In this document: in pieces, positions 2,868 through 24,319 of the stretch
Layout of the letters: each line of letters opens with the position of its first letter
Position numbering within the stretch: position 1 is the stretch's first letter
Origin: Xanthomonas campestris pv. campestris str. ATCC 33913
GTDB lineage: Bacteria > Pseudomonadota > Gammaproteobacteria > Xanthomonadales > Xanthomonadaceae
Direction of reading: 5' to 3'
DNA: 32,000 bases
NCBI RefSeq assembly: GCF_000007145.1
Contig: NC_003902.1
Location: forward strand, 340,325-372,324
Notes under the pieces: generated by a model
Database searches by the model: none
Told to the model about the DNA's origin: nothing
Seen by the model: only the letters and a program-made list of their open reading frames with translations
Translations under genes and position numbers: made by a program

Positions 2868-3200
2868 TCAGCTGCCGCGATAGGTGGAATAGCCGTACGG
2901 CGACAGCAGCAGCGGCACGTGGTAATGGCCATGCTCGCCTAGGTTGAAGACGATCGGCACCATCTCCAGGAACGGCGGGTCGGCCAGCGCGGTGCCGCTG
3001 GCCTGCCAGTAGCCGGCCACGTCGAACTCCAGCCGGTAGCGGCCCCTTGCCAGATGCAACGTGGCCAGGGCCGGGCAGCGCCCGTCGGCATCGGTGGCCG
3101 CCTCCAGGCACAGGGTGTCGCCGGCGAACAGGCGCAGCGTGACGCCCGCAGCCGGGCGGCCGGCGGCGGTGTCGAGCACATGGGTGGAGAGCGTGCTCAT
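2868..3200 (-). CDS. uraH: 5-hydroxyisourate hydrolase (transthyretin-like)
   Basis: 110 aa from ATG 3200 (MSTLSTHVLDTAAGRPAAG...). Ends in the family signature ...HYHVPLLLSPYGYSTYRGS. Its ATG overlaps the upstream stop as ATGA, which favours 3200 over the longer ORF start at 3227. Confidence 0.9.
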   Translation of the reverse strand: MSTLSTHVLDTAAGRPAAGVTLRLFAGDTLCLEAATDADGRCPALATLHLARGRYRLEFDVAGYWQASGTALADPPFLEMVPIVFNLGEHGHYHVPLLLSPYGYSTYRGS

Positions 3201-4618
3201 GCCACCGCCTGCGTGGGCTGTGGCCATTGGCCGACGAATTCGGCCTGGTCGTAGCCCAGGTAGGCCTCGACCATGGCCTGGCGGTCGTCCAGGAACAGCT
3301 GATCGGCCACCGCCCGTGCCAGCCGCGGCAGCGCCACTTTCAGCCCCGATAACGCCGCTGCAGACAAGCCGTGGTTGATCAGCGCCGAATAGTTGAAGGC
3401 GAACAGCCCGTCCACCGCGGCGGCATCGTCGGGCGTGCGGGGCAGTAGCTCGAATCCAGGGCCCAGGTAGGGGTGCGCGTCCAGCACCGGATTGGCCTGG
3501 CCGGGCGGGGCCTGGTAGCGGTCGGCCCAGCAGGCGATGCGCCCGGACAGCGCGGCCAGCTCCGGGCGCAGCCGCGGGTCGGTGACCAGGCCGGTGGCGA
3601 TGGCCAGGAAGTCGAAACGGTGCTCGCCCTGCGGGGTGCGCACCACCACCACGTCATTGTGTTCTTCCACGCCCAGCCATGGCGCGTCCAGGTGCAGCGC
3701 AAAACCGGCATGCGCGCAGGCACGCTGGAAGGTGTCGTTGGTGGGCGGTTGGTTGCGGCCGAAGAAGCTGGCCATCATGCGGTACTTGTCGGCGTCGGGC
3801 AGGGCGGCGAAGCGTGGAATGATGCCGGCCTGTTCCATGTGGCGGATCGGGTTGACCCGCGGCAGCGCGGCGCGGCGCACGAACACCTCCGCACGCGCCA
3901 CGCCCTGGTCCAGCGCGAAGCAGGCGTTGTCGAACGCCGAGGCGCCGCCGCCCAGGATGCCCACGCGCTTGCCGGCCAATGCGGCGTAATCGATGGGGCC
4001 GGAAGTATGCGCGTAGCGCTGCGCCGGCAGGGCCTGGGTGATCCACTCAGGCACCTGCCATTGGCCGCCGCCCTGGATGCCGGTGGCCAGGATGATCTTG
4101 CGCGCCATCAGCGGCGCGCCCATCGCCAGGTGCAGGCGATGGATGCCGGGCGCGGCGTCTGGCTCGATGCGCACCAGCTGGGTGGCATTGCGCACCGGCA
4201 GCCGCAGCGCCGCGCGGTACCAGCGCAGGTAGTCCATCCAGGTGCCGCGCGGAATCTTGTCCAGCGCGTCCCAGCCGGCGGCGCCGTGCTGCGCCTCCCA
4301 CCAGGCGCGGAAGGTGAGCGTGGGCACGCCCAGGTCGATCGAAGTGATCTGCTTGGGCGTGCGCAGCGTCTGCATGCGTGCGTAGGTGACCCAGGGGCCC
4401 TCCTGCCCGGGCGGGTTTTCGTCGATCACCAACACGTTATGCACGCGCTCGCGTTGCAGGGCGAAGGCCGCGCCCAGGCCGCTCTGCCCGGCGCCGACGA
4501 TGACCACGTCGTACACATGGCCGGCCGGATGCACGCGCGGGCGCACCCAGGGTTCGCCGCCGTGGGCGAGGCGTTGCAGGTCGTGTTGCAGCGCGTGTTC
4601 GAGTTGAGCCAGGCTCAT
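3197..4618 (-). CDS. hpyO: FAD/NAD(P)-binding flavoprotein monooxygenase, probable HpyO-type urate hydroxylase
   Basis: 473 aa from ATG 4618. Two dinucleotide-binding motifs: VVIVGAGQSGLGAAF and VGILGGGASAFDNA. It lies between uraD and uraH with ATGA coupling on both sides. Xanthomonad urate clusters are known to use HpyO in place of uricase or HpxO. The 730-aa ORF in the track is an upstream run-on. Confidence 0.7.
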   Translation of the reverse strand: MSLAQLEHALQHDLQRLAHGGEPWVRPRVHPAGHVYDVVIVGAGQSGLGAAFALQRERVHNVLVIDENPPGQEGPWVTYARMQTLRTPKQITSIDLGVPTLTFRAWWEAQHGAAGWDALDKIPRGTWMDYLRWYRAALRLPVRNATQLVRIEPDAAPGIHRLHLAMGAPLMARKIILATGIQGGGQWQVPEWITQALPAQRYAHTSGPIDYAALAGKRVGILGGGASAFDNACFALDQGVARAEVFVRRAALPRVNPIRHMEQAGIIPRFAALPDADKYRMMASFFGRNQPPTNDTFQRACAHAGFALHLDAPWLGVEEHNDVVVVRTPQGEHRFDFLAIATGLVTDPRLRPELAALSGRIACWADRYQAPPGQANPVLDAHPYLGPGFELLPRTPDDAAAVDGLFAFNYSALINHGLSAAALSGLKVALPRLARAVADQLFLDDRQAMVEAYLGYDQAEFVGQWPQPTQAVA

Positions 4619-5106
4619 GGCAATGCCTCCAGGCGCAGGTGCACGATCTTGCCGATCTCGGCGAGGGCGGTGGCGATTTCGTCGTTGCGTGGTGCGTCCA
4701 GGCGACGCTGCAGTTCGGCCAGGATCCCGGCCTTGTCCTGCAAGCGCACGCAGATCACGAAGGGGAATCCAAAGCGCTGCCGGTAGGCATGGTTGAGTGC
4801 GTGAAAGCGGTGGAATTCGTCTTCGTCGAGCCGGTCCAGGCCGGCCGAGGCCTGCTCGGCGGCGGAGGCGGCGGTGAGGGTGCGGTCGATTGCGGCCTTG
4901 CCGGCCAGTTCCGGATGCGCGCGGATCAGCGCCAGCTGATCGTCGGGTGAGGCGTCGTACACCACCTGCATCAATCCGCCAAACACATCGTCGAACGGGC
5001 GGCGGCGCGCAGCGCGTTCGACCACCCACGGCGAATGCTCGAACAGCGCGCGGTAGCGCGCCACGAAGGCGGCGGTGTCCAGCGCGTTGGCATCGATCAC
5101 GCTCAT
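4615..5106 (-). CDS. uraD: 2-oxo-4-hydroxy-4-carboxy-5-ureidoimidazoline (OHCU) decarboxylase
   Basis: 163 aa. ...LFEHSPWVVERAA...LIRAHPELAGK...EQASAGLD...FHALNHAYRQRFGFPFVICVR matches the OHCU decarboxylase family. ATGA overlaps at both ends. Confidence 0.9.
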   Translation of the reverse strand: MSVIDANALDTAAFVARYRALFEHSPWVVERAARRRPFDDVFGGLMQVVYDASPDDQLALIRAHPELAGKAAIDRTLTAASAAEQASAGLDRLDEDEFHRFHALNHAYRQRFGFPFVICVRLQDKAGILAELQRRLDAPRNDEIATALAEIGKIVHLRLEALP

Positions 5107-5498
5107 GCGTGGCTGCCTTGCAGCGAGACGTGCGCAGCCACCACTTTCCAGCCATCGGTAAAGCGCACCCAGGTCTGGCTCTGGCGGCCGTGCGCGGTGC
5201 TGCCCTCGCGCACGAATTCCGCATGCGTGGTGGCAAGATCCTGGCCGAAGCCGTGCACCGCAACGTGCACGAGCTGGCGCTGCGGCGAGCCGCCACGACC
5301 GATGCGAAATGCACGGATCGCCTCGCTGCCGTACAGCACTTCGCCCACGCCATAGCGCACTGTGCTTGGCGCGGCATGGAACAGCGCATCCATCGCGGCG
5401 ATATCGTCGTGCATCAAGGCGTGCTCATACGCATGGAATGCCGCGGTGACCTCGGCGATCACCTCCGGCAGATCGATGCTGGCCGTGTCGATGCTCAT
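5103..5498 (-). CDS. hpxZ: NTF2-fold AtzH-like / oxalurate catabolism protein HpxZ-like (DUF3225)
   Basis: 131 aa from ATG 5498. YEHALMHDDIAAMDALF...STVRYGVGEVLYGSEAIRAFR...GRQSQTWVRFTDGWKVVAAHVS matches remembered AtzH-like/HpxZ motifs. ATGA-coupled on both sides. Confidence 0.75.
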   Translation of the reverse strand: MSIDTASIDLPEVIAEVTAAFHAYEHALMHDDIAAMDALFHAAPSTVRYGVGEVLYGSEAIRAFRIGRGGSPQRQLVHVAVHGFGQDLATTHAEFVREGSTAHGRQSQTWVRFTDGWKVVAAHVSLQGSHA

Positions 5499-6385
5499 GC
5501 CGGGTGCACCTGTAGCCAGTGACGCGCGATGTCGATGCGGCGTGCAACCCAGGCATCGCCACTGGCCAGCACGTGATCGACAAAACGTGCCAGCGCTGCG
5601 GCACGCGCCGGCTTGCCGACGATGCGCCCGTGCAGGCCGATGGAGAGCATGCGCCCGCCTTCGCTGCGCAGCTGTTCGAAGCTGTCGTGCAGATAGCGGA
5701 AGAACGGCTCGCCATCGGCAAAACCATTGTAGGCGACGAATTTCATGTCGTTGACATCGAGCGTGTACGGCACGATCAGCTGCGCACGGCCGTGGCGCCG
5801 GTCGTAGTACGGCACGTCGTCGGCATAGCTGTCGGCGTCGTAGACGAAGCCGCCTTCCTCGGCCACCAGACGCGCGGTATTGGGGCTGGTGCGGCCTTGA
5901 TACCAACCAAGCGGGCGGCTGCCGGTGACTTGCGTATGCAGGGCGATGGCCTCGGCCAGATGCGCGCGTTCGGTGGCTGCATCCACGTGCTGGTAGTCGA
6001 TCCAGCGCAACCCATGGCTGGCGATTTCCCAGTCGGCCGATTGCATCGCCGCCACCGCCTCGGGATTGGCGGCGAGCGCGGTGGCGACACCGAACACGGT
6101 GACCGGCACGCCGCGCGCGCTGAACAGCCGATGCAGCCGCCAGAACCCGGCGCGGCTGCCGTATTCGTACAGGCTTTCCATCGCCATGGCGCGTGCGCCC
6201 GGATGCGACGGCGCGCCGACCATTTCCGACAGGAACGCTTCCGAACCGGCATCGCCGTTGAGCACGCAGTTTTCCGCGCCCTCTTCGTAGTTGATGACGA
6301 ACTGCACCGCGATGCGCGCGCCACCTGGCCATTGCGCCGGCGGCGGCGTGGCGCCATAACCGACCAGGTCGCGCGCCGTACTCAT
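5495..6385 (-). CDS. puuE: allantoinase PuuE (polysaccharide-deacetylase family)
   Basis: 296 aa from ATG 6385 (MSTARDLVGYG...). RIAVQFVINYEEGAENCVLNGD...YEYGSRAGFWR...WEIASHGLRWIDY...LSIGLHGRIVGKPAR is typical of PuuE. Confidence 0.9.
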   Translation of the reverse strand: MSTARDLVGYGATPPPAQWPGGARIAVQFVINYEEGAENCVLNGDAGSEAFLSEMVGAPSHPGARAMAMESLYEYGSRAGFWRLHRLFSARGVPVTVFGVATALAANPEAVAAMQSADWEIASHGLRWIDYQHVDAATERAHLAEAIALHTQVTGSRPLGWYQGRTSPNTARLVAEEGGFVYDADSYADDVPYYDRRHGRAQLIVPYTLDVNDMKFVAYNGFADGEPFFRYLHDSFEQLRSEGGRMLSIGLHGRIVGKPARAAALARFVDHVLASGDAWVARRIDIARHWLQVHPA

Positions 6386-7638
6386 GCAGCCGGCTCCGCA
6401 TGCCAGGCGGCGCGTGCGGCTTCGACCGCCAGGCCTTGGGTGCACGCGTAGCCCTCGGCGCGCAGCACCGCTTCCAGTGCGGCCAGGGTGAGCAGCACCT
6501 TGTGCTTCATCGCGTTGTAGCCCATCGCACCGATGCGCCAGATCCTGCCTTGCAGCGGGCCGAACGCGGTGCCGATCTCGATTTCGAAATCCTCGCGCAT
6601 GCGCCGCCGCACTGCTTCACTGTCGACGCCGTGCGGGATCACCACGCCGGTGACATTGCTCATGCGGTGCGCATCGTCGCCGAACACCTCCAGCCCCAGT
6701 GCGCGCACGCCGGCGCTGACCGCGCGGCCGGCAGCCGCATGCCGGGCGTAGCGCGCCTCCAGGCCTTCCTGCAAGGCCACGCGTGCGCATTCGCGCGCGC
6801 CGTACAGCATGGTGGTGGCTTCGGTGTGGTGATTGAGGCGCTTGTCGGACCAGTAATCCATGATCATCGCCAGGTCGAAATAATTCGAGGCGATGCGTGG
6901 GCCGCTGCCGTTGGCGATGTCCTCGCGCACGATGCCGCGTTCGACATGCCGCCGCGCAAAGATCGCCTCCGCTGCCGCGGCAGAGACAGTGATCGGCGCC
7001 GAGCCGGACGGCCCGCCCAGGCATTTCTGCAGCCCCGCGGTGACCACGTCCACCTCCCAGCGGTCGCTGGCGATGTCCATGCCGCCGATGGTGGCTGTGG
7101 CGTCTACGTAACTCAGCGCGCCGGCCGCCCGGCATAGCGCGCCTAGGCCATCGAGCGGCTGCGCCATGGTGGTGGAGGTGTCGCCGTGCACGGTGGCCAC
7201 CAGCTTGGGTGCCACGCTTGCGATCGCCTCGGCAATCGCCGCCAGCGGCACCACCTCGCCCCACGGCGCATCCACGGTGTGGACGTCGGCGCCGAGCCGG
7301 CCAAGGATTTCGGTCAGCAACAAACCGAAGCGGCCGAAGTTGATCACCAGCACACGGTCGCCCGGCTGCACCAGCGACACCAGCGCGGCTTCGATGCCGG
7401 CGCGCGCCGTGCCATCGACCAGAAAGGTCCAGCGGTTCTGGGTGCCGAACAAGGGGCGGTACAGCGCCATCACCTCGTTCATGTAGGTGGTCATTTCCGG
7501 GTCGAACTGGCCAAGCAGGTCGGCCGCCATCGCACGCAGCACGCGTGGATGCGCATTGACCGGGCCGGGGCCCATCAACAGGCGTTGCGGCGGATCCAGT
7601 TCGCCGAAGGTGTGCAGGTGGCGCAGGTCAGGTGCCAA
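6382..7638 (-). CDS. pucG: class V aminotransferase, (S)-ureidoglycine--glyoxylate aminotransferase-like (PucG/HpxJ family)
   Basis: LLMGPGPVNAHPRVLRAM N-terminal motif and the AGXT-family body (VDATATIGG..., QKCLGGPSG). The start taken is TTG 7638, which overlaps the allC stop by 11 nt. The first in-frame ATG (7575) would remove residues conserved upstream of LLMGPGP. Confidence 0.8.
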   Translation of the reverse strand: MAPDLRHLHTFGELDPPQRLLMGPGPVNAHPRVLRAMAADLLGQFDPEMTTYMNEVMALYRPLFGTQNRWTFLVDGTARAGIEAALVSLVQPGDRVLVINFGRFGLLLTEILGRLGADVHTVDAPWGEVVPLAAIAEAIASVAPKLVATVHGDTSTTMAQPLDGLGALCRAAGALSYVDATATIGGMDIASDRWEVDVVTAGLQKCLGGPSGSAPITVSAAAAEAIFARRHVERGIVREDIANGSGPRIASNYFDLAMIMDYWSDKRLNHHTEATTMLYGARECARVALQEGLEARYARHAAAGRAVSAGVRALGLEVFGDDAHRMSNVTGVVIPHGVDSEAVRRRMREDFEIEIGTAFGPLQGRIWRIGAMGYNAMKHKVLLTLAALEAVLRAEGYACTQGLAVEAARAAWHAEPAA

Positions 7639-8899
7639 TGGGAGCTCCGAAGTGTTCGATGAAATGGCGCATCACCGCCAGGGCGACCTCGGCATCGGCC
7701 GGGTCGACGTGTTCGTCCGGATGATGGCTGATGCCGCCGGCGCAGCGCACGAACAGCATCGCGGTGGGGCAGAGCGCCGCCATCACCATGGCGTCGTGCC
7801 CGGCGCCGGAGACCAGCGGCCGTGGTGTGATGCCTTGCGCGGCGACCGCTTGCGTCAGGCGGGCGATCAATGCCGGCGCGCAGGGGCTGGCCGCCAGCGC
7901 CTGCAGCGGCTCGACGGCGATGGCAACCCCGCGCGCGGCAACCACCTGCTCCAGGGCGCGTTCGATCTGCGCCACTGCAGCGTCGCGGCGGTGGTCATCG
8001 CCGGCGCGCACGTCCAGCGTGCAGTCCACGCGGCCGGGCACCACGTTGATGGCGCCGGGGGCGACCTCCAGCTTGCCAACGGTGGCAACCAGATCGTCGC
8101 CGCCACTGCGCGCAATCTGCTCGATCATCAGCAGCGCTTCGGCGGCCGCGCTCAAGGCATCGCGGCGCAGCGCCATGGTGGTGGTGCCGGCGTGGCCGGC
8201 GCGGCCGTCGAAGCGCAGCCGAAAGCGCCGTTGCGCGGCGATGCCGGTGACGATGCCAACCGGCAGCTGCGCGACTTCCAGCACCGGGCCTTGTTCGATA
8301 TGCGTTTCCAGATACGCCAGCACGCTGCCCGGCACGCGCGCGGCTTCATGTAGACGTGCGGCGTCCAGGCCCCACGCGGCCAGCGCGGTGGCCACGTCGA
8401 CGCCGTCTGGATCGCGCACGGCCAGGGCGGCCGCATCCAGCGTGCCGGCCACCGCGCGGCTACAGAACATCGATGCCGGAAAGCGCGAGCCTTCTTCATC
8501 GCCGAACCCAACGACTTCGATCGCAAACGGCAGCCGGCGCCCTTGTGCGTGCAGCGCGGCCACGCATTCGATGCCGAGCAGCACGCCCAGCGGGCCGTCA
8601 TAGCGCCCGGCCGCGCGCACGCTGTCCAGGTGGCTGCCGATCAACAGCGCCGGTGCGTGCGCATGCGCGCCTTCGTAGCGCCCGACCAGATTGGCGGCCG
8701 CATCCAGGCGCACCTGCATGCCGGCCTGGCGCATCCACGCGCCCACCTGCTCGGTGGTGGCGCGATGCGCCGGGCTGAGCCAGCTGCGGAACAGACCGGT
8801 GGGGGTGTCGCTGAAGGGCGCCACGCCCAGCGCATCACAGCGCGCCACGGCCCGTGCGCCGGAGGCAACGGGGGCGTTGCTGGCTACCGCACTCAGCAT
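7628..8899 (-). CDS. allC: allantoate amidohydrolase (M20 Zn-hydrolase, AllC family)
   Basis: 423 aa from ATG 8899. GSHLDSV, GFGDEEGSRF, GHAGTTTM and SGAGHDAM motifs of the M20 amidase/carbamoylase family. The 522-aa ORF in the track is a 5' run-on into the promoter region. Confidence 0.85.
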   Translation of the reverse strand: MLSAVASNAPVASGARAVARCDALGVAPFSDTPTGLFRSWLSPAHRATTEQVGAWMRQAGMQVRLDAAANLVGRYEGAHAHAPALLIGSHLDSVRAAGRYDGPLGVLLGIECVAALHAQGRRLPFAIEVVGFGDEEGSRFPASMFCSRAVAGTLDAAALAVRDPDGVDVATALAAWGLDAARLHEAARVPGSVLAYLETHIEQGPVLEVAQLPVGIVTGIAAQRRFRLRFDGRAGHAGTTTMALRRDALSAAAEALLMIEQIARSGGDDLVATVGKLEVAPGAINVVPGRVDCTLDVRAGDDHRRDAAVAQIERALEQVVAARGVAIAVEPLQALAASPCAPALIARLTQAVAAQGITPRPLVSGAGHDAMVMAALCPTAMLFVRCAGGISHHPDEHVDPADAEVALAVMRHFIEHFGAPIGT

Positions 8900-9035
8900 G
8901 CGGTGATCCGGCAGTGGTGGGACAGGGCAAACGCAGCGGTGGGCTGGGGCATGTCTGCGTGCTCGATGTCGTGGCCCGTGTTGCGGGGCGGGAGGGGCGT
9001 CTCGACTATACGAACGTCGTCGTGTCGCCCCAAAG

Positions 9036-9077
9036 CGGTTTTTTTCGAGGTTGCCGTTGCAAAAAATGCGACGGGCC
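9036..9077. promoter_or_regulatory. conserved regulatory module with T-N11-A dyad TTGCAAAAAATGCGA in the allC / lysR divergent region
   Basis: CGGTTTTTTTCGAGGTTGCCGTTGCAAAAAATGCGACGGGCC. The dyad is at 9057-9071. A near-identical module occurs at 25446-25484 in the other divergent LysR promoter region. Confidence 0.45.
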
Positions 9078-9211
9078 TGGAGCGAGCACCTGCACAGAGG
9101 AGCGCGGGGCATGCAGTAGCCGAATCCCGTGCTGCGCGCATCGCCGACCGGACGTGCCAGGCCCATTGCCGGACTGTTACAGTCGGTGCGGGGCATGAAT
9201 CGGATTCACCA

Positions 9212-10105
9212 ATGGCGCGCGATAATTTCAAGGACCTGCTGGCGCTGATCGCCATCGTGCGGGAAGGCAGCTTCACCCGGGCCGCGGCAAAGCTGGGGGT
9301 GTCGCAGTCGGCGCTCAGCCACACCATCCGCGGGCTGGAAGCGACGCTCGGCCTGCGCCTGCTCACCCGCACCACCCGCAGCGTGGCGCCGACCGAGGCC
9401 GGCGAGCGCCTGATCCAGACGGTGGCGCCGCGCTTTGCCGAGATCGAAGAGGCGCTGTCGGCGCTGAGCGAGATGCGCGACACCCCGGCTGGCAGCGTGC
9501 GCATCACCGCCACCGACTATGCCGCGCGCGAAATCCTGTGGCCCAAGCTGGCGGTGCTGCTGCGCCAGTACCCGGACATCAAGGTGGAACTGGTGGTGGA
9601 CAACGGCCTGACCGACATCGTGGCCGACCGTTACGATCTCGGCGTGCGCCTGGGCGACCAGGTGGAAAAAGACATGATCGCCGCGCGCATCGCGCCGGAC
9701 ATGCGCATGGCATTGATCGCCTCGCCCGCCTACCTGGAACGCCGGCCGCTGCCCAAGACCCCGCAAGACCTCACCGCGCACCTGTGCATCAACCTGCGCA
9801 TGACCACCGCCGGCGGCATCTACGCCTGGGAACTGGAAAAGGACGGCCGCGAGATCGCAGTGCGTGTGGAGGGCCAGCTCACCTTCAACAGCATCTATGA
9901 AGCATTGGATGCGGCGCTGCAGGGGTTCGGCATCGCCTTCGTGCAGGAAGACCTCGCCCGGCCGCACATCAAGGCCGGGCGGCTGCGTTGGGTGATGAAG
10001 GACTGGTCACCCACCTGGCCCGGCCTGCATGCGTTCTACCCCAGCCGCCGGCATTCCTCGCCCGCGTTCAACCTGGTGCTGGAGGCGCTGCGGCATAAGG
10101 GCTGA
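9212..10105 (+). CDS. LysR-family transcriptional regulator
   Basis: 297 aa from ATG 9212. The N-terminal wHTH FTRAAAKLGVSQSALSHTIRGLEATLGLRLLTRTTRSVAPTEAG is followed by a LysR substrate-binding domain. Divergent from allC. Confidence 0.9.
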   Translation: MARDNFKDLLALIAIVREGSFTRAAAKLGVSQSALSHTIRGLEATLGLRLLTRTTRSVAPTEAGERLIQTVAPRFAEIEEALSALSEMRDTPAGSVRITATDYAAREILWPKLAVLLRQYPDIKVELVVDNGLTDIVADRYDLGVRLGDQVEKDMIAARIAPDMRMALIASPAYLERRPLPKTPQDLTAHLCINLRMTTAGGIYAWELEKDGREIAVRVEGQLTFNSIYEALDAALQGFGIAFVQEDLARPHIKAGRLRWVMKDWSPTWPGLHAFYPSRRHSSPAFNLVLEALRHKG

Positions 10106-10126
10106 GGGTTGCGCTGGTGTTGGGAC

Positions 10127-10399
10127 GCGGTCGAAATCCTGAGCGTGTATCTGGCCAGGGAGCTGGAACCGCGCAGTATCACGGCCAACACGGTGGCGCG
10201 CGGTGCCATTGCCACTGGCTTTCCCGGAGGTGCGGTGCGCGATACGCCGGCCTACACCAAGGCCTTTGCCGACATGACCGCGTTGGGCCGGGTGGGCGTG
10301 CCGGACGACATCGGCCCGATGGTCGCCAGCCTGTTGAGCGAGGACAACCGCTGGGTCACCGGGCAGCGGATCGAGGTGTCTGGCGGCCAGACGATCTGA
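10127..10399 (+). pseudogene. 3' remnant of an SDR-family oxidoreductase gene
   Basis: Only the C-terminal ~90 aa are present: AVEILSVYLARELEPRSITANTVARGAIATGF...GRVGVPDDIGPMVASLLSEDNRWVTGQRIEVSGGQTI. The Rossmann N-terminus and the catalytic YxxxK are missing. The fragment starts within ~20 nt of the LysR stop. Confidence 0.75.
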
Positions 10400-10582
10400 G
10401 CTGGCTGAGGCGGTGGAATCAGCATGTGTTTGTTCGACTGTTTCGTTGGTGCTCGCCAGTCGTTTCGATGGGAAGCGCCGCGCACGAGCGCGATAGTGCG
10501 TGAAGCCCGCGCACTGCGCGGGTCTGCAACCCCGGAAATTGTAGTCGGCGTATCCGAATGCAATCGCAATCGCTGACGTCAT

Positions 10583-11591
10583 CGCACACCACGTAGAGCG
10601 CGCTTGCGCGCGATGAAGCTGTCCCGGTAACGCCCCATCGCGCGTAAGCGCGCTCCTACGACCGCCGACGCGTGTGGGAGTGTCGTGACATCAGACCAGC
10701 CACAACAGATTCGCCTGTTTGGCAGAGGTGTGTCGTATGCGTGATTGTGACCGCCATCCGTGACGGCGGCGCACACCACGTAGGAGCGCGCTCGCGCGCG
10801 ATGAAGCTGTCCCGGTAACGCCCGATCGCGCGCAAGCGCGCTCCTAAGACCGCCGATGCGTGCGGAAGTGTCGTGACATCAGACCAGCCACAACAGATTC
10901 GCCTGTTTGGCAGAGGTGTCGTATGCGTGATTGTGACCGCCATCCGTGACGGCGGCACACAGCACGTAGGAGCGCGTTTGCGCGCGACGAAGCTGTTCCG
11001 GTAACACCCCATCGCGCGCAAGCGCGCGCCTACGACCGCCGATGCGTGCGGAAGTGTCGTGACATCAGACCAGCCACAACAGATTCGCCTGTTTGGCAGA
11101 GGCGTTGCACGCGTGACTGTGACTGCCATCCGTGACGGCGGCGCACATCATGTAAGAGCGCGCTTGCGCGCGATGAAGCTGTCGCGGTGACGTCCCATCG
11201 CGCGCAAGCGCGCTCCTACGGCCGCCGATGCGTGCGGGAGTGCCGTGAGATCAGACCAGACACAGAGGATTCGCCTGTTTGGCAGAGGTGTCGTATGCGT
11301 GACTGTAGCCGCCATCCGTGATGGCGGCAGACACCACGTAGGAGCGCGCTTGCGCGCGATGAAGCTGTCTCGGTGACGCCCCATCGCGCGCAAGCGCGCT
11401 CCTACGACCGCCGATACGTGCGTGAGTATCGTGACATCAGCCCAAGCACGGCAGATTCGCCTGTTTGATGGACGTGTTTCATGCGTGACTGTGACCGCCA
11501 TCCGTGATGGCGGCGCGCATCAGGTAGGAGCGCGCTCGCGCGCGATGAAGCTGTCCCGGTAACGCCCCATCGCGCGCAAGCGCGCGCCTAC
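10583..11591. repeat. tandem array of composite REP units: 6 GTAG-type hairpins, 5 conserved linkers, period 186 bp
   Basis: GTAG heads at 10593, 10780, 10966, 11152, 11338 and 11524. Each REP is GTAGGAGCGCGCTTGCGCGCG(ATG)-loop-(CAT)CGCGCGCAAGCGCGCTCCTAC. Linkers of ~118 nt are conserved and carry CCGCC-N9-GGCGG at 10751, 10937, 11123, 11309 and 11495. Confidence 0.9.
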
Positions 11592-15415: not shown

Positions 15416-16996
15416 TCACCACCCAGCCACCGCACCATCCGATCTTGGGTCGCTCGCACCACTCACCACGCCGGTGACCTCACGCACCAGGGCGCCAGCA
15501 TGCCCCATCACCGAGCTATAGGCCGGTAACAGTTCGACGGCGTGGCCGGCGTCGCGCAGTGCTTGCACCACGGCCGGGTCGAAGCGGTCTTCCAGCTTCA
15601 ACGTGGTGCTGTCGTCGCCCCAGGTGCGGCCGAGCAGCCAGCGCGGTGCGGTGATGGCCTGTTGCAACGGCATGCCGAAGTGGGCGTAGCGCGAGAACAG
15701 CGCGGCCTGGGTCTGCGGTTGGCCTTCGCCGCCCATGGTGCCGTAGGCCATGACGCGGCCATCGTCGAAGGTGGCCAGGGCGGGGTTGAGGGTGTGGAAC
15801 GGTTTACGCCCTGGGGCGAGTGCATTCCAGCCGTCGGTGGCGAGGCGAAAGCTGCAGCCGCGATTCTGCCAGGTGATGCCGGTATGCGGCAGCACCAGGC
15901 CGGAGCCGAATTCGAAATAGGTGGACTGGATGCAGCTCACCGCGCGGCCCTGCGCGTCGATGGCGCCGAACCAGACGGTGTCGCCGGCCTGCGAGGGCTG
16001 CGGCCAGGGCAGGGCCGCGTGCAGGTCGATGCGGGCGGCCAGTGCGTCCAGCGCAGCGCTGTCGTCGAGCAGGGCTTGTGCGTCGAGCGTCATCCAGGCG
16101 CTGTCGCCGATGTGGGCGTCGCGAATCAGGAAGGCCTGTTTGGTGGCTTCGATCAGGCCATGCAGGTGCGCGAAACTGTCTGCCTGCGTGGCCGGCAGGC
16201 GGTCGAACAGCGCCAGGATCAACAGCGAGGCCAGCCCTTGCGTGGGCGGTGCGTGGTTATACAAACGTGCACCGGCGATGGCGACTGAGAGCGGCACGCT
16301 GGCCTCGGCGGTGTGTGTGGCCAGGTCATCCGCATGCAACGGGCTGCCGAGTACGCGTAGGTCGGCGGCGATGTCATCGGCGAGCGCGCCGCGGTAGAAA
16401 CTGTCCAGGCCATCGTGCGCCAGCCGTTGCAGGGTGCGCGCGAGCTGGGGTTGCTGCAGCACGGCGCCCTCGTGCAGGGGCGCGCCGCGCGGCTCGAAGA
16501 TGCGCGCATAGGCGCCCGGCAGGCAACGCAGTTCATCGCCCTTGCTGGCGGCGATGTGCGCACCGCCGAGCGTGATCGGCACGCCCACCTCGGCATGGTG
16601 GATGGCCTCTTCCAGCAGCTGCTGCAGCGGGAGCGTGCCACCACCGTGCTGGAGCGCAAGCGCCCAGCCGGAGACGGTGCCGGCCACGGTATTGGCGGCG
16701 CCCGGGCCGCGCCAGGGGATGTGGGTGTGGCCGCGATAGAAGTCCAGCGTGGCCGCCTGTGCGGCACGGCCGCAGGCGTCGATGGCGTGTACGCGGCCAT
16801 CGGGTTCGTGGATCAGCCAGAAGCCATCGCCGCCGATGCCGGTCATGTGCGGATACACCACGGCCAGACAGGCGGCGGTGGCCACCGCTGCTTCGATGGC
16901 GTTGCCGCCGGCGCGCAGGATGTCGCGCCCGGCCTGCGCGGCCAGATGGTGAGGCGCGACCACCATGCCGCGGCGTGCGCGCAAGGTGTGCAGCAT
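15416..16996 (-). CDS. hpxW: gamma-glutamyltransferase-family Ntn amidohydrolase, HpxW-like (candidate oxamate amidohydrolase)
   Basis: 526 aa from ATG 16996. GGT fold motifs: GGNAIEAAVA, HMTGIGGDGFWL, the putative autoprocessing nucleophile in GDTVWFGAIDAQGRAVSCIQS, and YGTMGGEGQPQTQ. Its start overlaps the amidase stop (TGATG). The 1007-aa ORF in the track is a run-on. Confidence 0.75.
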   Translation of the reverse strand: MLHTLRARRGMVVAPHHLAAQAGRDILRAGGNAIEAAVATAACLAVVYPHMTGIGGDGFWLIHEPDGRVHAIDACGRAAQAATLDFYRGHTHIPWRGPGAANTVAGTVSGWALALQHGGGTLPLQQLLEEAIHHAEVGVPITLGGAHIAASKGDELRCLPGAYARIFEPRGAPLHEGAVLQQPQLARTLQRLAHDGLDSFYRGALADDIAADLRVLGSPLHADDLATHTAEASVPLSVAIAGARLYNHAPPTQGLASLLILALFDRLPATQADSFAHLHGLIEATKQAFLIRDAHIGDSAWMTLDAQALLDDSAALDALAARIDLHAALPWPQPSQAGDTVWFGAIDAQGRAVSCIQSTYFEFGSGLVLPHTGITWQNRGCSFRLATDGWNALAPGRKPFHTLNPALATFDDGRVMAYGTMGGEGQPQTQAALFSRYAHFGMPLQQAITAPRWLLGRTWGDDSTTLKLEDRFDPAVVQALRDAGHAVELLPAYSSVMGHAGALVREVTGVVSGASDPRSDGAVAGW

Positions 16997-19756: not shown

Positions 19757-19814
19757 TGCGCTGTCGTCATGGAGGGGAAATGTATTGCAGCGGCGATGCA
19801 GCGGAAGTCGCGTT

Positions 19815-19882
19815 GTAGGAGCGCGCTTGCGCGCGATGAGGCGTTATCGGTGAAGCCTCTTCGCGCGCAAGCGCGCTCCTAT
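19815..19882. repeat. solitary GTAG-type REP hairpin
   Basis: GTAGGAGCGCGCTTGCGCGCG - loop (with inner GAGGC/GCCTC stem) - CGCGCGCAAGCGCGCTCCTAT. Lies between the adenosine deaminase stop and the nucleoside hydrolase start. Confidence 0.85.
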
Positions 19883-23342: not shown

Positions 23343-24302
23343 TCAAAGTTCCAGCACCAGCCGTGGCGTGCGGCTGCGCGAACAGCACAGGGTGATCTGC
23401 GTGTTCTGCGCGTGTTCGCTGTCGCTGAGCACGCTGTCGCGGTGATCGGGCACGCCATCGAGCACGCCGGTCAGGCAGGCCCCGCACATGCCTTGCTCGC
23501 ACGACAGCGGCACCTCCACGCCTGCGGCCATCAGCGCACTGGCGATACTGCACTCGGCCGCCACCTGCACCACGCGCCCGCTGGCGGCCAGCTCAACTTC
23601 GAAGGCGTCGTCGGCGGCGTGCGGCACGGCCGGCGCGACCGCGGCGAAGTGTTCGCGATGCAGCTGCGCCGGCGCCCAGCCCTGCGCCAGGGCCAGCGCG
23701 CTGAAGTGATCCATGAACGCGGCCGGCCCGCACAGATACAGCTGGTCGCGCGCGTGTGCCTTGCGCAGTTCGGTGGGGATGTGCACACGCGGGCTCTCGC
23801 CCCCATCGCTCAGGTGCACCTGCACCTGGCCGTGCTGGAAGCCCTGCTGCAGGCGCTGCCCGAAGGCCACATCCGCCTGCCGGCGTGCGTAGTAGTGCAG
23901 CACGAAGGCCTCGCCGCGCGCTTCCAGCGCCTCGACCATCGACAGCAGCGGAGTGATGCCGATCCCGGCCGCCAGCAGCACATGGCGTTCGCCCGGGTGT
24001 AACGGGAACAGGTTGCGCGGCGTGGAGATCTGCAGCCGGTCGCCGGCCGCGAGTTGTTCGCACAGATGCCGCGAGCCGCCGCGCGAGGCGTCGGCCAGCT
24101 TCACGCACAACAGGTAATGGTCGCGCGCATGCGGCGCGCTGGCGATGGAGTACTGGCGGATCAAACCATCGGGCAGGTGCAGGTCCACATGCGCGCCGGC
24201 TTCAAAGGCCGGCAACTCCGCGCCGATCGGCTCCAACCGGATCGCCCGCTGGCGATGTCCCTGGTCGACGACTTCCGCCACACGCACCTCATGCAGGCTC
24301 AT
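23343..24302 (-). CDS. hpxE: PDR/VanB-type oxidoreductase (flavin + NAD + C-terminal plant-type 2Fe-2S), HpxE-like
   Basis: RQYSIAS flavin motif, LLAAGIGITPLLSM NAD motif and C-terminal CEQGMCGACLT...CC ferredoxin cysteines. ATG 24302 has GAGGAT 8 nt upstream. The alternative TTG 24323 overlaps the upstream stop. Confidence 0.8.
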   Translation of the reverse strand: MSLHEVRVAEVVDQGHRQRAIRLEPIGAELPAFEAGAHVDLHLPDGLIRQYSIASAPHARDHYLLCVKLADASRGGSRHLCEQLAAGDRLQISTPRNLFPLHPGERHVLLAAGIGITPLLSMVEALEARGEAFVLHYYARRQADVAFGQRLQQGFQHGQVQVHLSDGGESPRVHIPTELRKAHARDQLYLCGPAAFMDHFSALALAQGWAPAQLHREHFAAVAPAVPHAADDAFEVELAASGRVVQVAAECSIASALMAAGVEVPLSCEQGMCGACLTGVLDGVPDHRDSVLSDSEHAQNTQITLCCSRSRTPRLVLEL

Positions 24303-24319
24303 GCCGTCATCCTCGCCGG

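What the first reader, a model, noticed from the sequence alone, without database searches (positions are those of the whole stretch)
9036..9077. Shared operator-like module (A/T tract plus TTGCA-N5-TGCAA, a T-N11-A LysR box) in two separate purine promoters
CGGTTTTTTTCGAGGTTGCCG-TTGCAAAAAATGCGA-CGGGCC (dyad 9057-9071, allC/lysR region) matches CGTTTTTCCGCCAAGCCA-TTGCAAAAAATGCAA-CGGCC (dyad 25464-25478, hpxD/lysR region). The two copies share 14 of 15 dyad positions plus flanks, in the same orientation. An A6-containing 15-mer recurring in ~68% GC DNA specifically in the two divergent LysR promoters of one pathway is unlikely to be chance. It suggests that one regulator, either one of the two LysR proteins or a third factor, co-ordinates ring oxidation with ureide breakdown. 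A separate dyad GACTGT-T-ACAGTC at 9172-9184, just upstream of the LysR ATG, may be the autoregulatory site.
Basis: seen in the sequence. Interest (0 to 1): 0.65.

Follow-up and report, generated by a model that had tools for sequence, protein, structure and literature searches.

The report
Shared HpxR-type operator in two purine promoters
Two promoters of the Xanthomonas purine-breakdown gene cluster carry the same conserved regulator-binding site, most likely for the known hypoxanthine regulator HpxR, which is a solid but fairly ordinary regulon prediction.

Summary
TTGCAAAAAATGCGA (9057-9071) and TTGCAAAAAATGCAA (25464-25478) are the only two matches in the window. No shuffle of the window gives even one match at one mismatch or fewer.

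The window is Xanthomonas campestris. Both sites are conserved across about 30 Xanthomonas species and relatives. They occur nowhere else in 829 kb of related loci.

Each site belongs to a larger conserved promoter module on the minus strand. The order is dyad, then a T-tract, then a -35 element, then a -10 element (TATAGT for allC, TAGAGT for hpxD). The dyad centre lies about 65 bp upstream of the predicted transcription start, which is the usual position for a LysR-type activator.

The LysR gene next to hpxD is the orthologue of Klebsiella HpxR (49% identity, recognition helix conserved). Its site overlaps the position of the published Klebsiella HpxR site.

The allC site persists in many species that lack the neighbouring LysR gene at 9212-10105. 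That LysR is therefore not the cognate regulator.

Best reading: HpxR activates both hpxDE and the allC-puuE-hpyO operon. The second site extends the HpxR regulon in this lineage. Binding itself was not tested, and no whole genome was scanned. The GACTGT-T-ACAGTC dyad is not conserved as a palindrome.

The parts
9057..9071 (-). Site 1: dyad TTGCAAAAAATGCGA (core TTGC-N7-GCrA). It is centred about -66 from the predicted allC transcription start and is the proposed HpxR recognition site.
   Evidence: present and unique. (conserved upstream of allC in 19 aligned Xanthomonadaceae loci, including species without LysR1).
9039..9045 (-). T7 tract (A-tract on the transcribed strand, about -41 to -47 of the allC promoter). 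It is either the activation-site part of the LysR-type operator or a proximal UP-element subsite.
   Evidence: It is a conserved TTTTTT block in the alignment, flanked by variable spacers.
9005..9033 (-). Predicted sigma-70 promoter of the allC operon: -35 TTGGGG (9033..9028), 17-nt spacer, -10 TATAGT (9010..9005).
   Evidence: Read from the sequence. ACTATA is invariant in 20/20 aligned sequences (19 loci plus the window), and GTCGCC..CAA is conserved. The built-in promoter scan did not call it, and the start site is not experimentally known.
3197..8899 (-). allC operon: allantoate amidohydrolase (7628-8899), class-V aminotransferase (6382-7638), PuuE allantoinase (5495-6445), HpxZ (about 5103-5480), and a FAD monooxygenase that may be an HpyO-type urate hydroxylase (3197 to about 5100, start not determined).
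   Evidence: Pfam and NCBIfam hits. Start of allC. The genes are tightly packed or overlapping on one strand. HpyO in Xanthomonas is described in PMC4562309.
25464..25478 (-). Site 2: perfect dyad TTGCAAAAAATGCAA (T-N11-A). It is centred about -65 from the predicted hpxD start and lies 22 bp upstream of the hpxR ATG. It is the proposed HpxR recognition site.
   Evidence: Conserved in 29 Xanthomonadaceae hpxD-hpxR intergenic regions. The core TTGCAAAAA is also present in Pseudomonas, Stutzerimonas, Frateuria, Gibbsiella and Klebsiella hpxD-hpxR regions.
25448..25452 (-). T5 tract (ATCGTTTTTCC block, about -42 to -46 of the hpxD promoter).
   Evidence: The ATCGaTTTtC block is shared with Pseudomonas and Stutzerimonas.
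25413..25441 (-). Predicted sigma-70 promoter of hpxDE: -35 TTGATC (25441..25436), 17-nt spacer, -10 TAGAGT (25418..25413).
   Evidence: Read. Both hexamers are nearly invariant across Xanthomonas. The same layout occurs in Stenotrophomonas and a Lysobacteraceae genome.
23343..25372 (-). hpxD (24320-25372, Rieske oxygenase) and hpxE (23343-24323, reductase): hypoxanthine/xanthine oxidation.
   Evidence: Pfam. 64% and 47% identity to K. pneumoniae HpxD and HpxE.
25500..26417 (+). hpxR orthologue (LysR2), the proposed cognate regulator of both sites.
   Evidence: Pfam HTH_1 + LysR_substrate. 49% identity over 301 residues to K. pneumoniae HpxR. Homologues are named 'hpxDE operon transcriptional regulator HpxR' by NCBI. 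The recognition helix LHVSASAI(D/N)RQIL is conserved across orthologues.

Best explanation
The two 15-mers are recognition sites of one LysR-type activator, the HpxR orthologue encoded at 25500-26417.

Each site sits at about -65 in a modular sigma-70 promoter on the minus strand. The order is dyad (TTGC-A-rich N7-GCAA), about 11 bp of variable spacer, a T-tract at about -41 to -47, a -35 element, 17 bp, and a -10 element of form TAnAGT.

One promoter drives hpxDE (hypoxanthine to urate). The other drives allC-aminotransferase-puuE-hpxZ-hpyO (urate and ureide breakdown). By analogy with Klebsiella HpxR, an HpxR tetramer would occupy the dyad and the promoter-proximal region. With a purine effector (hypoxanthine in Klebsiella) it would activate both operons. 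Because site 2 lies only 22 bp upstream of the hpxR start codon, occupancy would also repress hpxR.

Shown here: the sites, their conservation and fixed position, the promoter-like blocks, and the orthology of the regulator. Inferred: which protein binds, the direction of regulation, the effector, and the transcription starts.
For: 1. Uniqueness in the window.

2. Phylogenetic footprint. In the allC upstream alignment, the dyad, T-tract, -35 block and -10 block are conserved islands separated by variable spacers in 20 sequences (19 loci plus the window). The hpxD region is conserved across 29 loci.

3. Specificity. In 829 kb of Xanthomonadaceae loci there are 53 weight-matrix hits. 48 lie upstream of allC or hpxD. 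The other 5 are the same two contexts cut off by a locus end, or the hpxE promoter. There are 0 hits in 695 kb of other taxa.

4. Regulator orthology. LysR2 is 49% identical to K. pneumoniae HpxR with the same divergent hpxD arrangement. HpxD is 64% identical and HpxE 47%. The recognition helix is conserved in all HpxR orthologues and differs in LysR1.

5. Positional match to the known site. The Klebsiella intergenic region contains TCTGCtgttGCAAAaaa. This matches the published HpxR site TCTGC-N4-GCAAA (de la Riva et al. 2008, J Bacteriol 190:7892; abstract recalled from memory). Its TTGCAAAAAA part aligns with the left half and spacer of the Xanthomonas dyad. The same core appears in Pseudomonas, Gibbsiella, Pseudoxanthomonas, Stutzerimonas and Frateuria.

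6. LysR1 is dispensable. The allC site is kept in X. bromi, melonis, vasicola, prunicola, maliensis, euvesicatoria, nasturtii, massiliensis, a Stenotrophomonas and a MAG, all without LysR1 nearby.

7. The motif travels with the pathway and with hpxR.
- In X. bonasiae the hpxR orthologue lies directly upstream of the allC site.
- In a Lysobacteraceae genome an insertion separates hpxE from hpxD, and hpxE has its own full copy of the module. The same holds in Stenotrophomonas.
- In Pseudoxanthomonas allC follows directly in the hpxD...ggt gene string and has no separate site.

8. Similarity beyond the dyad. In X. bromi the promoter-proximal parts of the two modules align with score 13, against 3.0 +/- 1.6 for shuffles (0 of 2000 as high).
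Against: - No binding, expression or transcription-start data exist for Xanthomonas. The -65 placement rests on predicted hexamers that the built-in promoter scan did not flag.
- The published Klebsiella dyad extends to the left of the shared core (TCTGC), whereas the Xanthomonas dyad extends to the right (TGCAA). The two proposed dyads therefore overlap only in part, and the right half-site is not conserved outside the Xanthomonas/Stutzerimonas type.
- Site 1 in this strain breaks T-N11-A (G at position 14).
- Klebsiella HpxR is reported to control only hpxDE and itself.
- No complete Xanthomonas genome could be scanned, so other copies elsewhere are not excluded.
- In Stenotrophomonas L037 no hpxR is adjacent to either site.
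Confidence: 0.68

Rival explanations
1. A third, unidentified transcription factor, not encoded next to either site, binds the dyad and coordinates the two operons. Candidates would be a nitrogen- or purine-responsive global regulator. HpxR would then bind elsewhere in the hpxD-hpxR region.
For: - Binding was not tested.
- In Stenotrophomonas L037 neither site has an adjacent hpxR.
- The published Klebsiella dyad only partly overlaps the conserved core.
- Pseudoxanthomonas, Gibbsiella and Frateuria regions contain a second conserved block, TGTTGCAGTCCAT, that could be another protein's site.
Against: - The core co-occurs with hpxR-hpxD across Gamma- and other Proteobacteria at a fixed distance from hpxR.
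- The dyad has the form and position typical of LysR-type sites.
- It does not resemble the NtrC, Nac, sigma-54 or AllR consensus sequences. That comparison rests on my recollection of those consensus sequences.
Confidence: 0.12
2. The A/T-rich elements are structural promoter features rather than an operator: UP-element-like contacts for the RNA polymerase alpha subunit, or intrinsic DNA bending. On this view they were copied along with a duplicated promoter.
For: - The T-tract lies at about -41 to -47, where proximal UP subsites lie (established knowledge of UP elements).
- The whole module, not just the dyad, is similar between the two promoters, as expected after promoter duplication.
Against: - The dyad lies at -58 to -73, upstream of the canonical UP element.
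- Its GC-containing arms TTGC/GCAA are the most conserved positions, while the spacer tolerates G, C and T (site list).
- The same core lies within the region where HpxR binding was reported in Klebsiella.
Confidence: 0.1
3. The neighbouring LysR at 9212-10105 (LysR1) binds site 1, and perhaps site 2, and regulates allC. This was one of the reader's options.
For: LysR1 is divergently placed from allC in X. campestris and the arboricola, codiaei and floridensis lineages.
Against: - Site 1 is kept in at least 10 lineages without LysR1.
- LysR1 is only 25% identical to HpxR and has a different recognition helix.
- It travels with an MFS transporter gene and an SDR remnant, which suggests an unrelated inserted unit.
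- The dyad is about 100 bp from its likely promoter.
Confidence: 0.05
4. The match is chance, or the sites are copies of a dispersed genomic repeat.
For: - 5 of 400 shuffles of the two intergenic regions reach 14/15.
- No complete Xanthomonas genome was scanned.
Against: - Orthologous conservation in both promoters across about 30 species, with variable flanks.
- No extra copies in 829 kb of related loci.
- The real dispersed repeats in the window are a different sequence.
Confidence: 0.03

Closest known systems
Klebsiella pneumoniae HpxR operator in the hpxD-hpxR intergenic region (de la Riva et al. 2008, J Bacteriol 190:7892; abstract recalled from memory, paper not held)
   Same: - Orthologous regulator (49% identity, same recognition helix).
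- Orthologous target genes hpxDE in the same divergent arrangement.
- The site lies just upstream of the hpxR start.
- Shared core TTGCAAAAA(A), which includes the GCAAA arm of the published TCTGC-N4-GCAAA site.
   Different: - The Xanthomonas dyad is TTGC-N7-GCAA, with its second arm to the right of the A-tract. The published Klebsiella dyad has its second arm (TCTGC) to the left.
- In Xanthomonadaceae a second copy, and in some genomes a third, sits in front of allC (or hpxE). In Klebsiella HpxR is described as controlling only hpxDE and itself.
Canonical LysR-type activator promoters with a recognition site near -65 and an activation site near -35 (e.g. CbbR, BenM/CatM, OxyR; reviews by Schell 1993 and Maddocks & Oyston 2008, from general knowledge)
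   Same: - 15-bp interrupted dyad with T-N11-A.
- Centre at about -65 from the predicted start.
- Second conserved block between the dyad and the -35 element.
- Divergent regulator gene whose 5' region overlaps the site.
   Different: - The A6 spacer is itself conserved and contributes to specificity.
- Site 1 in this strain has T-N11-G.
- The allC target is not adjacent to the regulator gene.
E. coli AllR/AllS control of allantoin genes
   Same: It regulates ureide catabolism genes, and AllS is a LysR-type activator.
   Different: - Different regulators. HpxR and LysR1 match the AllS model only weakly (about 52-54 bits against a cut-off of 372).
- No AllR-type (IclR) gene was found in the window.
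- The motif is unlike the AllR operator as I recall it.

Membership tests
HpxR (LysR-type) operator of the hpx system | The cognate regulator is an orthologue of K. pneumoniae HpxR | tested here: met
   49% identity over 301 residues, E 9e-102. Intermediate homologues are named HpxR by NCBI. The recognition helix is conserved.
HpxR (LysR-type) operator of the hpx system | The site lies in the intergenic region between divergent hpxD and hpxR | tested here: met
   Site 2 lies between hpxD (ATG 25372, minus strand) and hpxR (ATG 25500, plus strand). HpxD is 64% identical to Klebsiella HpxD. Site 1 does not meet this feature: it lies upstream of allC.
HpxR (LysR-type) operator of the hpx system | Sequence corresponds to the published site TCTGC-N4-GCAAA | tested here: inconclusive
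   The Klebsiella region contains TCTGCtgttGCAAAaaa. Only the ttGCAAAaaa part is shared with Xanthomonas, and the TCTGC arm is absent in the window.
HpxR (LysR-type) operator of the hpx system | HpxR binds the site and mediates hypoxanthine induction and autorepression | not testable with these tools
   Needs EMSA or footprinting and expression assays.
LysR-type activator recognition site (generic) | Interrupted dyad containing T-N11-A | tested here: met
   Site 2 has T25465-N11-A25477 within the perfect TTGCA-N5-TGCAA. Site 1 has T-N11-G in this strain but T-N11-A in the LysR1-less clade (CTGCAAAAAATGCAA).
LysR-type activator recognition site (generic) | Centred near -65 relative to the activated promoter's start, with a second site near -35 to -50 | tested here: inconclusive
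   The predicted, conserved -35/-10 hexamers put the centres at about -65 and -66 and the T-tract at about -41 to -47. No experimental start site is available, and the hexamers were not flagged by the scan.
Dispersed repeat (REP/MITE-like) | Many copies irrespective of the neighbouring gene's function | tested here: not met
   Only 2 copies in the window. All 53 hits in 829 kb of related loci lie at purine promoters. The window's real repeats are unrelated. The whole genome was not scanned.
Riboswitch or other structured RNA (e.g. xanthine/urate NMT1 class) | Match to a curated RNA family | tested here: not met
   No Rfam family reaches its gathering score anywhere in the window.
Sigma-54 promoter | GG at -24 and GC at -12 with the TGGCAC-N5-TTGCA spacing | tested here: not met
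   Read from the sequences. TTGCA is present, but no GG lies 12 nt upstream of the GC. In the dyad the upstream arm reads TTGCA, not TGGCA.

The most novel reading that the evidence does not exclude
In Xanthomonadaceae, HpxR has become the master activator of the whole purine-to-ureide pathway. It does so through a portable promoter-plus-operator cassette (dyad, T-tract, -35, -10). The cassette is copied in front of each downstream gene block whenever insertions split the ancestral single operon. Pseudoxanthomonas has one string and one site, Xanthomonas has two cassettes, and a Lysobacteraceae genome has one in front of hpxD and another in front of hpxE.
Probability: 0.4. Interest if true: 0.45.

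Novelty: new member of a known kind. Interest (0 to 1): 0.3.

Why it matters
It gives a concrete, testable regulon model for purine nitrogen scavenging in an important group of plant pathogens. One hypoxanthine-type LysR regulator would switch on both ring oxidation and ureide breakdown.

It also corrects an easy annotation trap. The LysR gene next to allC is probably not the allC regulator.

It refines the likely HpxR recognition core (TTGCAAAAA plus a lineage-specific second arm) beyond the single Klebsiella study.

It is not a new kind of mechanism.

Tried and rejected
- **Sigma-54 promoter:** rejected. There is no GG/GC pair at the right spacing.
- **Intrinsic terminator:** the scan flagged a weak hairpin plus T-run at 9024-9049. 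This is just the conserved -35/T-tract region, and no gene ends upstream of it on that strand.
- **Riboswitch or structured RNA:** no Rfam hit in the window.
- **Dispersed repeat:** The repeat finder shows different repeats, and the weight-matrix scans show no extra copies.
- **Bare dyad TTGC-N7-GCAA as the motif:** not enriched.
- **Metagenome scan for new regulon members:** uninformative. Several hits lie inside a coding sequence spelling VAKNAT.
- **The Klebsiella HpxR paper:** could not be read, and no accessible paper quotes the site. The published site is therefore cited from memory. It was corroborated by finding exactly one TCTGC-N4-GCAAA in the Klebsiella intergenic region.
- **Literature on Xanthomonas purine regulation:** searches found nothing on this element.
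- **Concerted A6-to-A5 change in both sites of X. phaseoli:** tempting as covariation. The T-tract is shortened too, so homopolymer miscalling in that assembly is equally likely.

Full report
**1. The observation**

TTGCAAAAAATGCGA lies at 9057-9071 and TTGCAAAAAATGCAA at 25464-25478, on the same strand. Each has a T-tract 11-12 bp to its left and GC-rich flanks.

They are the only matches in the 32-kb window even at three mismatches. At one mismatch or fewer, none of 100 shuffles gave any match. A stricter test shuffled only the two intergenic regions, and a 14/15 match arose in 5 of 400 trials. The window alone therefore gives moderate support. The bare dyad TTGC-N7-GCAA is not enriched, so the A-rich spacer is part of the signal.

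**2. Context**

The window is Xanthomonas campestris. The LysR protein at 25500-26417 is identical in CP002789.1 and other X. campestris genomes. Pfam and NCBIfam scans show a purine-catabolism supercluster on the minus strand:
- **Right-hand block:** hpxD (24320-25372), hpxE (23343-24323), a xanthine/uracil permease, an adenosine-deaminase-family enzyme, a nucleoside hydrolase, an AtzE/HpxY-like amidase and a GGT/HpxW-like enzyme (15416-16996).
- **Left-hand block:** allC (7628-8899, start), a class-V aminotransferase, puuE, hpxZ and a FAD monooxygenase that may be the Xanthomonas HpyO urate hydroxylase (PMC4562309).

HpxD and HpxE are 64% and 47% identical to the Klebsiella proteins. Two LysR genes are divergent from these blocks: LysR1 (9212-10105) and LysR2 (25500-26417).

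**3. Conservation**

One genome-collection scan with the AtzE protein returned 80 loci, each spanning up to 10 kb on either side of the match. In essentially every Xanthomonas species whose locus reaches the relevant region, the motif (two mismatches or fewer) lies upstream of hpxD and upstream of allC. It occurs nowhere else in those loci.

A weight matrix built from the 18 distinct orthologous sites gave these results:
- In 829 kb of Xanthomonadaceae loci there were 53 hits. 48 lie at the two promoters. The other 5 are the same contexts cut off by a locus end, or the hpxE promoter.
- In 695 kb of other taxa there were none.
- In the window the two sites score 34.8 and 36.9 bits, and nothing else reaches 10 bits.

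The allC upstream alignment is a clean footprint. TCGACTATA, GTCGCC..CAA, TTTTTT and yTGCAAAAAAyGCrAC are conserved, while the spacers between them vary.

**4. What the module is**

On the minus strand, the direction of allC and hpxD, both regions read dyad, about 11 bp, A-tract, -35, 17 bp, -10:
- **hpxD:** TTGATC (25441..25436), 17 nt, TAGAGT (25418..25413).
- **allC:** TTGGGG (9033..9028), 17 nt, TATAGT (9010..9005). Species without LysR1 have TTGATG and an 18-nt spacer.

With a start about 7 nt beyond the -10, the dyad centres fall at about -65 and -66. The A-tracts fall at about -41 to -47. This is the textbook layout of a LysR-activated promoter. The hexamers are my reading of conserved blocks. 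The built-in scan did not call them, and no start-site data were available.

Similarity between the two modules extends beyond the dyad. In X. bromi the promoter-proximal parts align with score 13, against 3.0 +/- 1.6 for shuffles (0 of 2000 as high).

**5. Which regulator**

LysR2 is the HpxR orthologue:
- It is 49% identical over its full length to K. pneumoniae HpxR.
- It is linked to Klebsiella HpxR by a continuum of homologues, many of which NCBI names 'hpxDE operon transcriptional regulator HpxR'.
- It has the same divergent hpxD arrangement.
- The recognition helix LH(V/I)SASAI(D/N)RQ(I/V)L is conserved in orthologues from Xanthomonas, Pseudoxanthomonas, Pseudomonas, Gibbsiella and Klebsiella.

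The Klebsiella hpxD-hpxR region contains cacTCTGCtgttGCAAAaaagagtaca. This holds the one instance of TCTGC-N4-GCAAA, the HpxR site I recall from the abstract of de la Riva et al. 2008. That paper is not held. Its TTGCAAAAAA part aligns with the left arm and spacer of the Xanthomonas dyad.

The same core, at a similar distance from hpxR, is present in:
- Pseudomonas: GCGTTGCAAAAAACACA.
- Gibbsiella: CATCTGCAAAAATTAGTACAGG.
- Pseudoxanthomonas: GCGTTGCAAAAAACAGAACAGG.
- Stutzerimonas and Frateuria.

Site 2 is therefore the orthologous HpxR operator. The right arm TGCAA is specific to the Xanthomonas/Stutzerimonas type.

**6. LysR1 is not the cognate regulator**

Site 1 and its whole promoter module are retained in X. 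bromi, melonis, vasicola, prunicola, maliensis, euvesicatoria, nasturtii, massiliensis, a Stenotrophomonas and a MAG. None of these has LysR1 near allC.

LysR1 is 25% identical to HpxR and has a different recognition helix. It travels with an MFS transporter gene and is followed here by a truncated SDR gene and a repeat array. This looks like an inserted unit.

**7. The motif follows the pathway**

- In X. bonasiae the hpxR orthologue lies immediately upstream of the allC site, and no hpxDE is in the locus.
- In Pseudoxanthomonas allC follows ggt directly in one gene string headed by hpxD, and there is no separate allC site.
- In a Lysobacteraceae genome a TonB receptor gene and an amidohydrolase gene separate hpxD from hpxE, and hpxE has its own full cassette. 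Stenotrophomonas MMGLT7 also has a cassette in front of hpxE.

This fits a promoter-operator cassette that is re-used wherever the pathway genes are split.

**8. Mechanism proposed**

HpxR binds the dyad at -65 of both promoters and, with its effector, activates them. Occupancy of site 2, which lies 22 bp from the hpxR ATG, represses hpxR, as reported for Klebsiella. All of this step is inference.

The T-tract could be the activation-site half of the operator or a proximal UP-element subsite. The data cannot separate these.

**9. The second dyad**

GACTGTTACAGTC (9172-9184) is present. Among ten LysR1-bearing sequences only CTGyTACAGT is conserved, and the left arm changes. A -10-like TACAGT for the lysR1 promoter, 28 nt before the ATG, is the simpler reading.

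**10. Limits**

- The single metagenome scan was swamped by unrelated AT-rich contigs.
- Literature searches found no description of this element in Xanthomonas.

**11. Verdict**

This is a real, strongly conserved, pathway-specific operator. It is most likely an HpxR box, duplicated at the allC operon. It is a new member of a known kind, a useful regulon prediction, and of modest surprise.

Noticed in passing
window 10556-11590; also 19801-19881 and 28288-28821: A tandem array of about 186-bp units (5-6 copies, 87-95% identical) carries GTAGGAGCGCGCTTGCGCGCGAT...ATCGCGCGCAAGCGCGCTCCTA inverted repeats. There is a solo 81-nt copy between the deaminase and nucleoside hydrolase genes, and a second array of about 136-bp units. 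It looks like a REP/MITE-like intergenic repeat and explains the ORFs there that have no Pfam hit.
   Followed up: no
window 10106-10399: Only the C-terminal third of a short-chain dehydrogenase (adh_short_C2 positions 149-236) is encoded, starting right at the LysR1 stop. It is a probable gene remnant, consistent with rearrangement in the LysR1-MFS segment.
   Followed up: no
L035 (X. phaseoli CP094243.1), both dyads and the allC T-tract: Both dyads have A5 instead of A6, and the allC T-tract has T5 instead of T6. This is either a concerted spacer change in both operators or homopolymer undercalling in that assembly.
   Followed up: partly
L221 619-637 and 5964-5982 (Lysobacteraceae bacterium USHLN149); L037 1282-1300 (Stenotrophomonas sp. 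MMGLT7): In these genomes a full copy of the dyad/T-tract/-35/-10 cassette sits directly in front of hpxE. In the Lysobacteraceae genome hpxD and hpxE are separated by a TonB receptor gene and an amidohydrolase gene, and both cassettes carry C at dyad position 11.
   Followed up: partly
L039 13584-14438 (X. bonasiae); L219 10001-10912 (X. hyacinthi): In these early-branching Xanthomonas species the hpxR orthologue (72-74% identical) sits after ggt on the same strand rather than divergent from hpxD, and no hpxDE is in the locus. In X. bonasiae it lies directly upstream of the allC operator.
   Followed up: partly
L047-L051, L091, L220 hpxD-hpxR intergenic regions: A second conserved block, TGTTGCAGTCCAT, lies about 25 bp to the hpxD side of the TTGCAAAAA core. 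It is nearly identical in Pseudoxanthomonas and Gibbsiella and is similar in Frateuria, but absent in Xanthomonas. It may be another half-site or another factor's site.
   Followed up: no
metagenome loci L119, L134, L163, L190: The 17-mer GTTGCAAAAAATGCAACA recurs inside a conserved coding sequence, where it spells VAKNAT downstream of a DKSVISRH motif. These are unrelated GC-rich contigs, so the motif's occurrence there is incidental.
   Followed up: no
window about 28740-29625 (-) and 29769-31118 (+): According to the gene calls in the matching X. campestris loci, a third LysR-family gene is divergent from an MFS transporter gene just downstream of the cluster. No dyad of the HpxR type lies there.
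   Followed up: no
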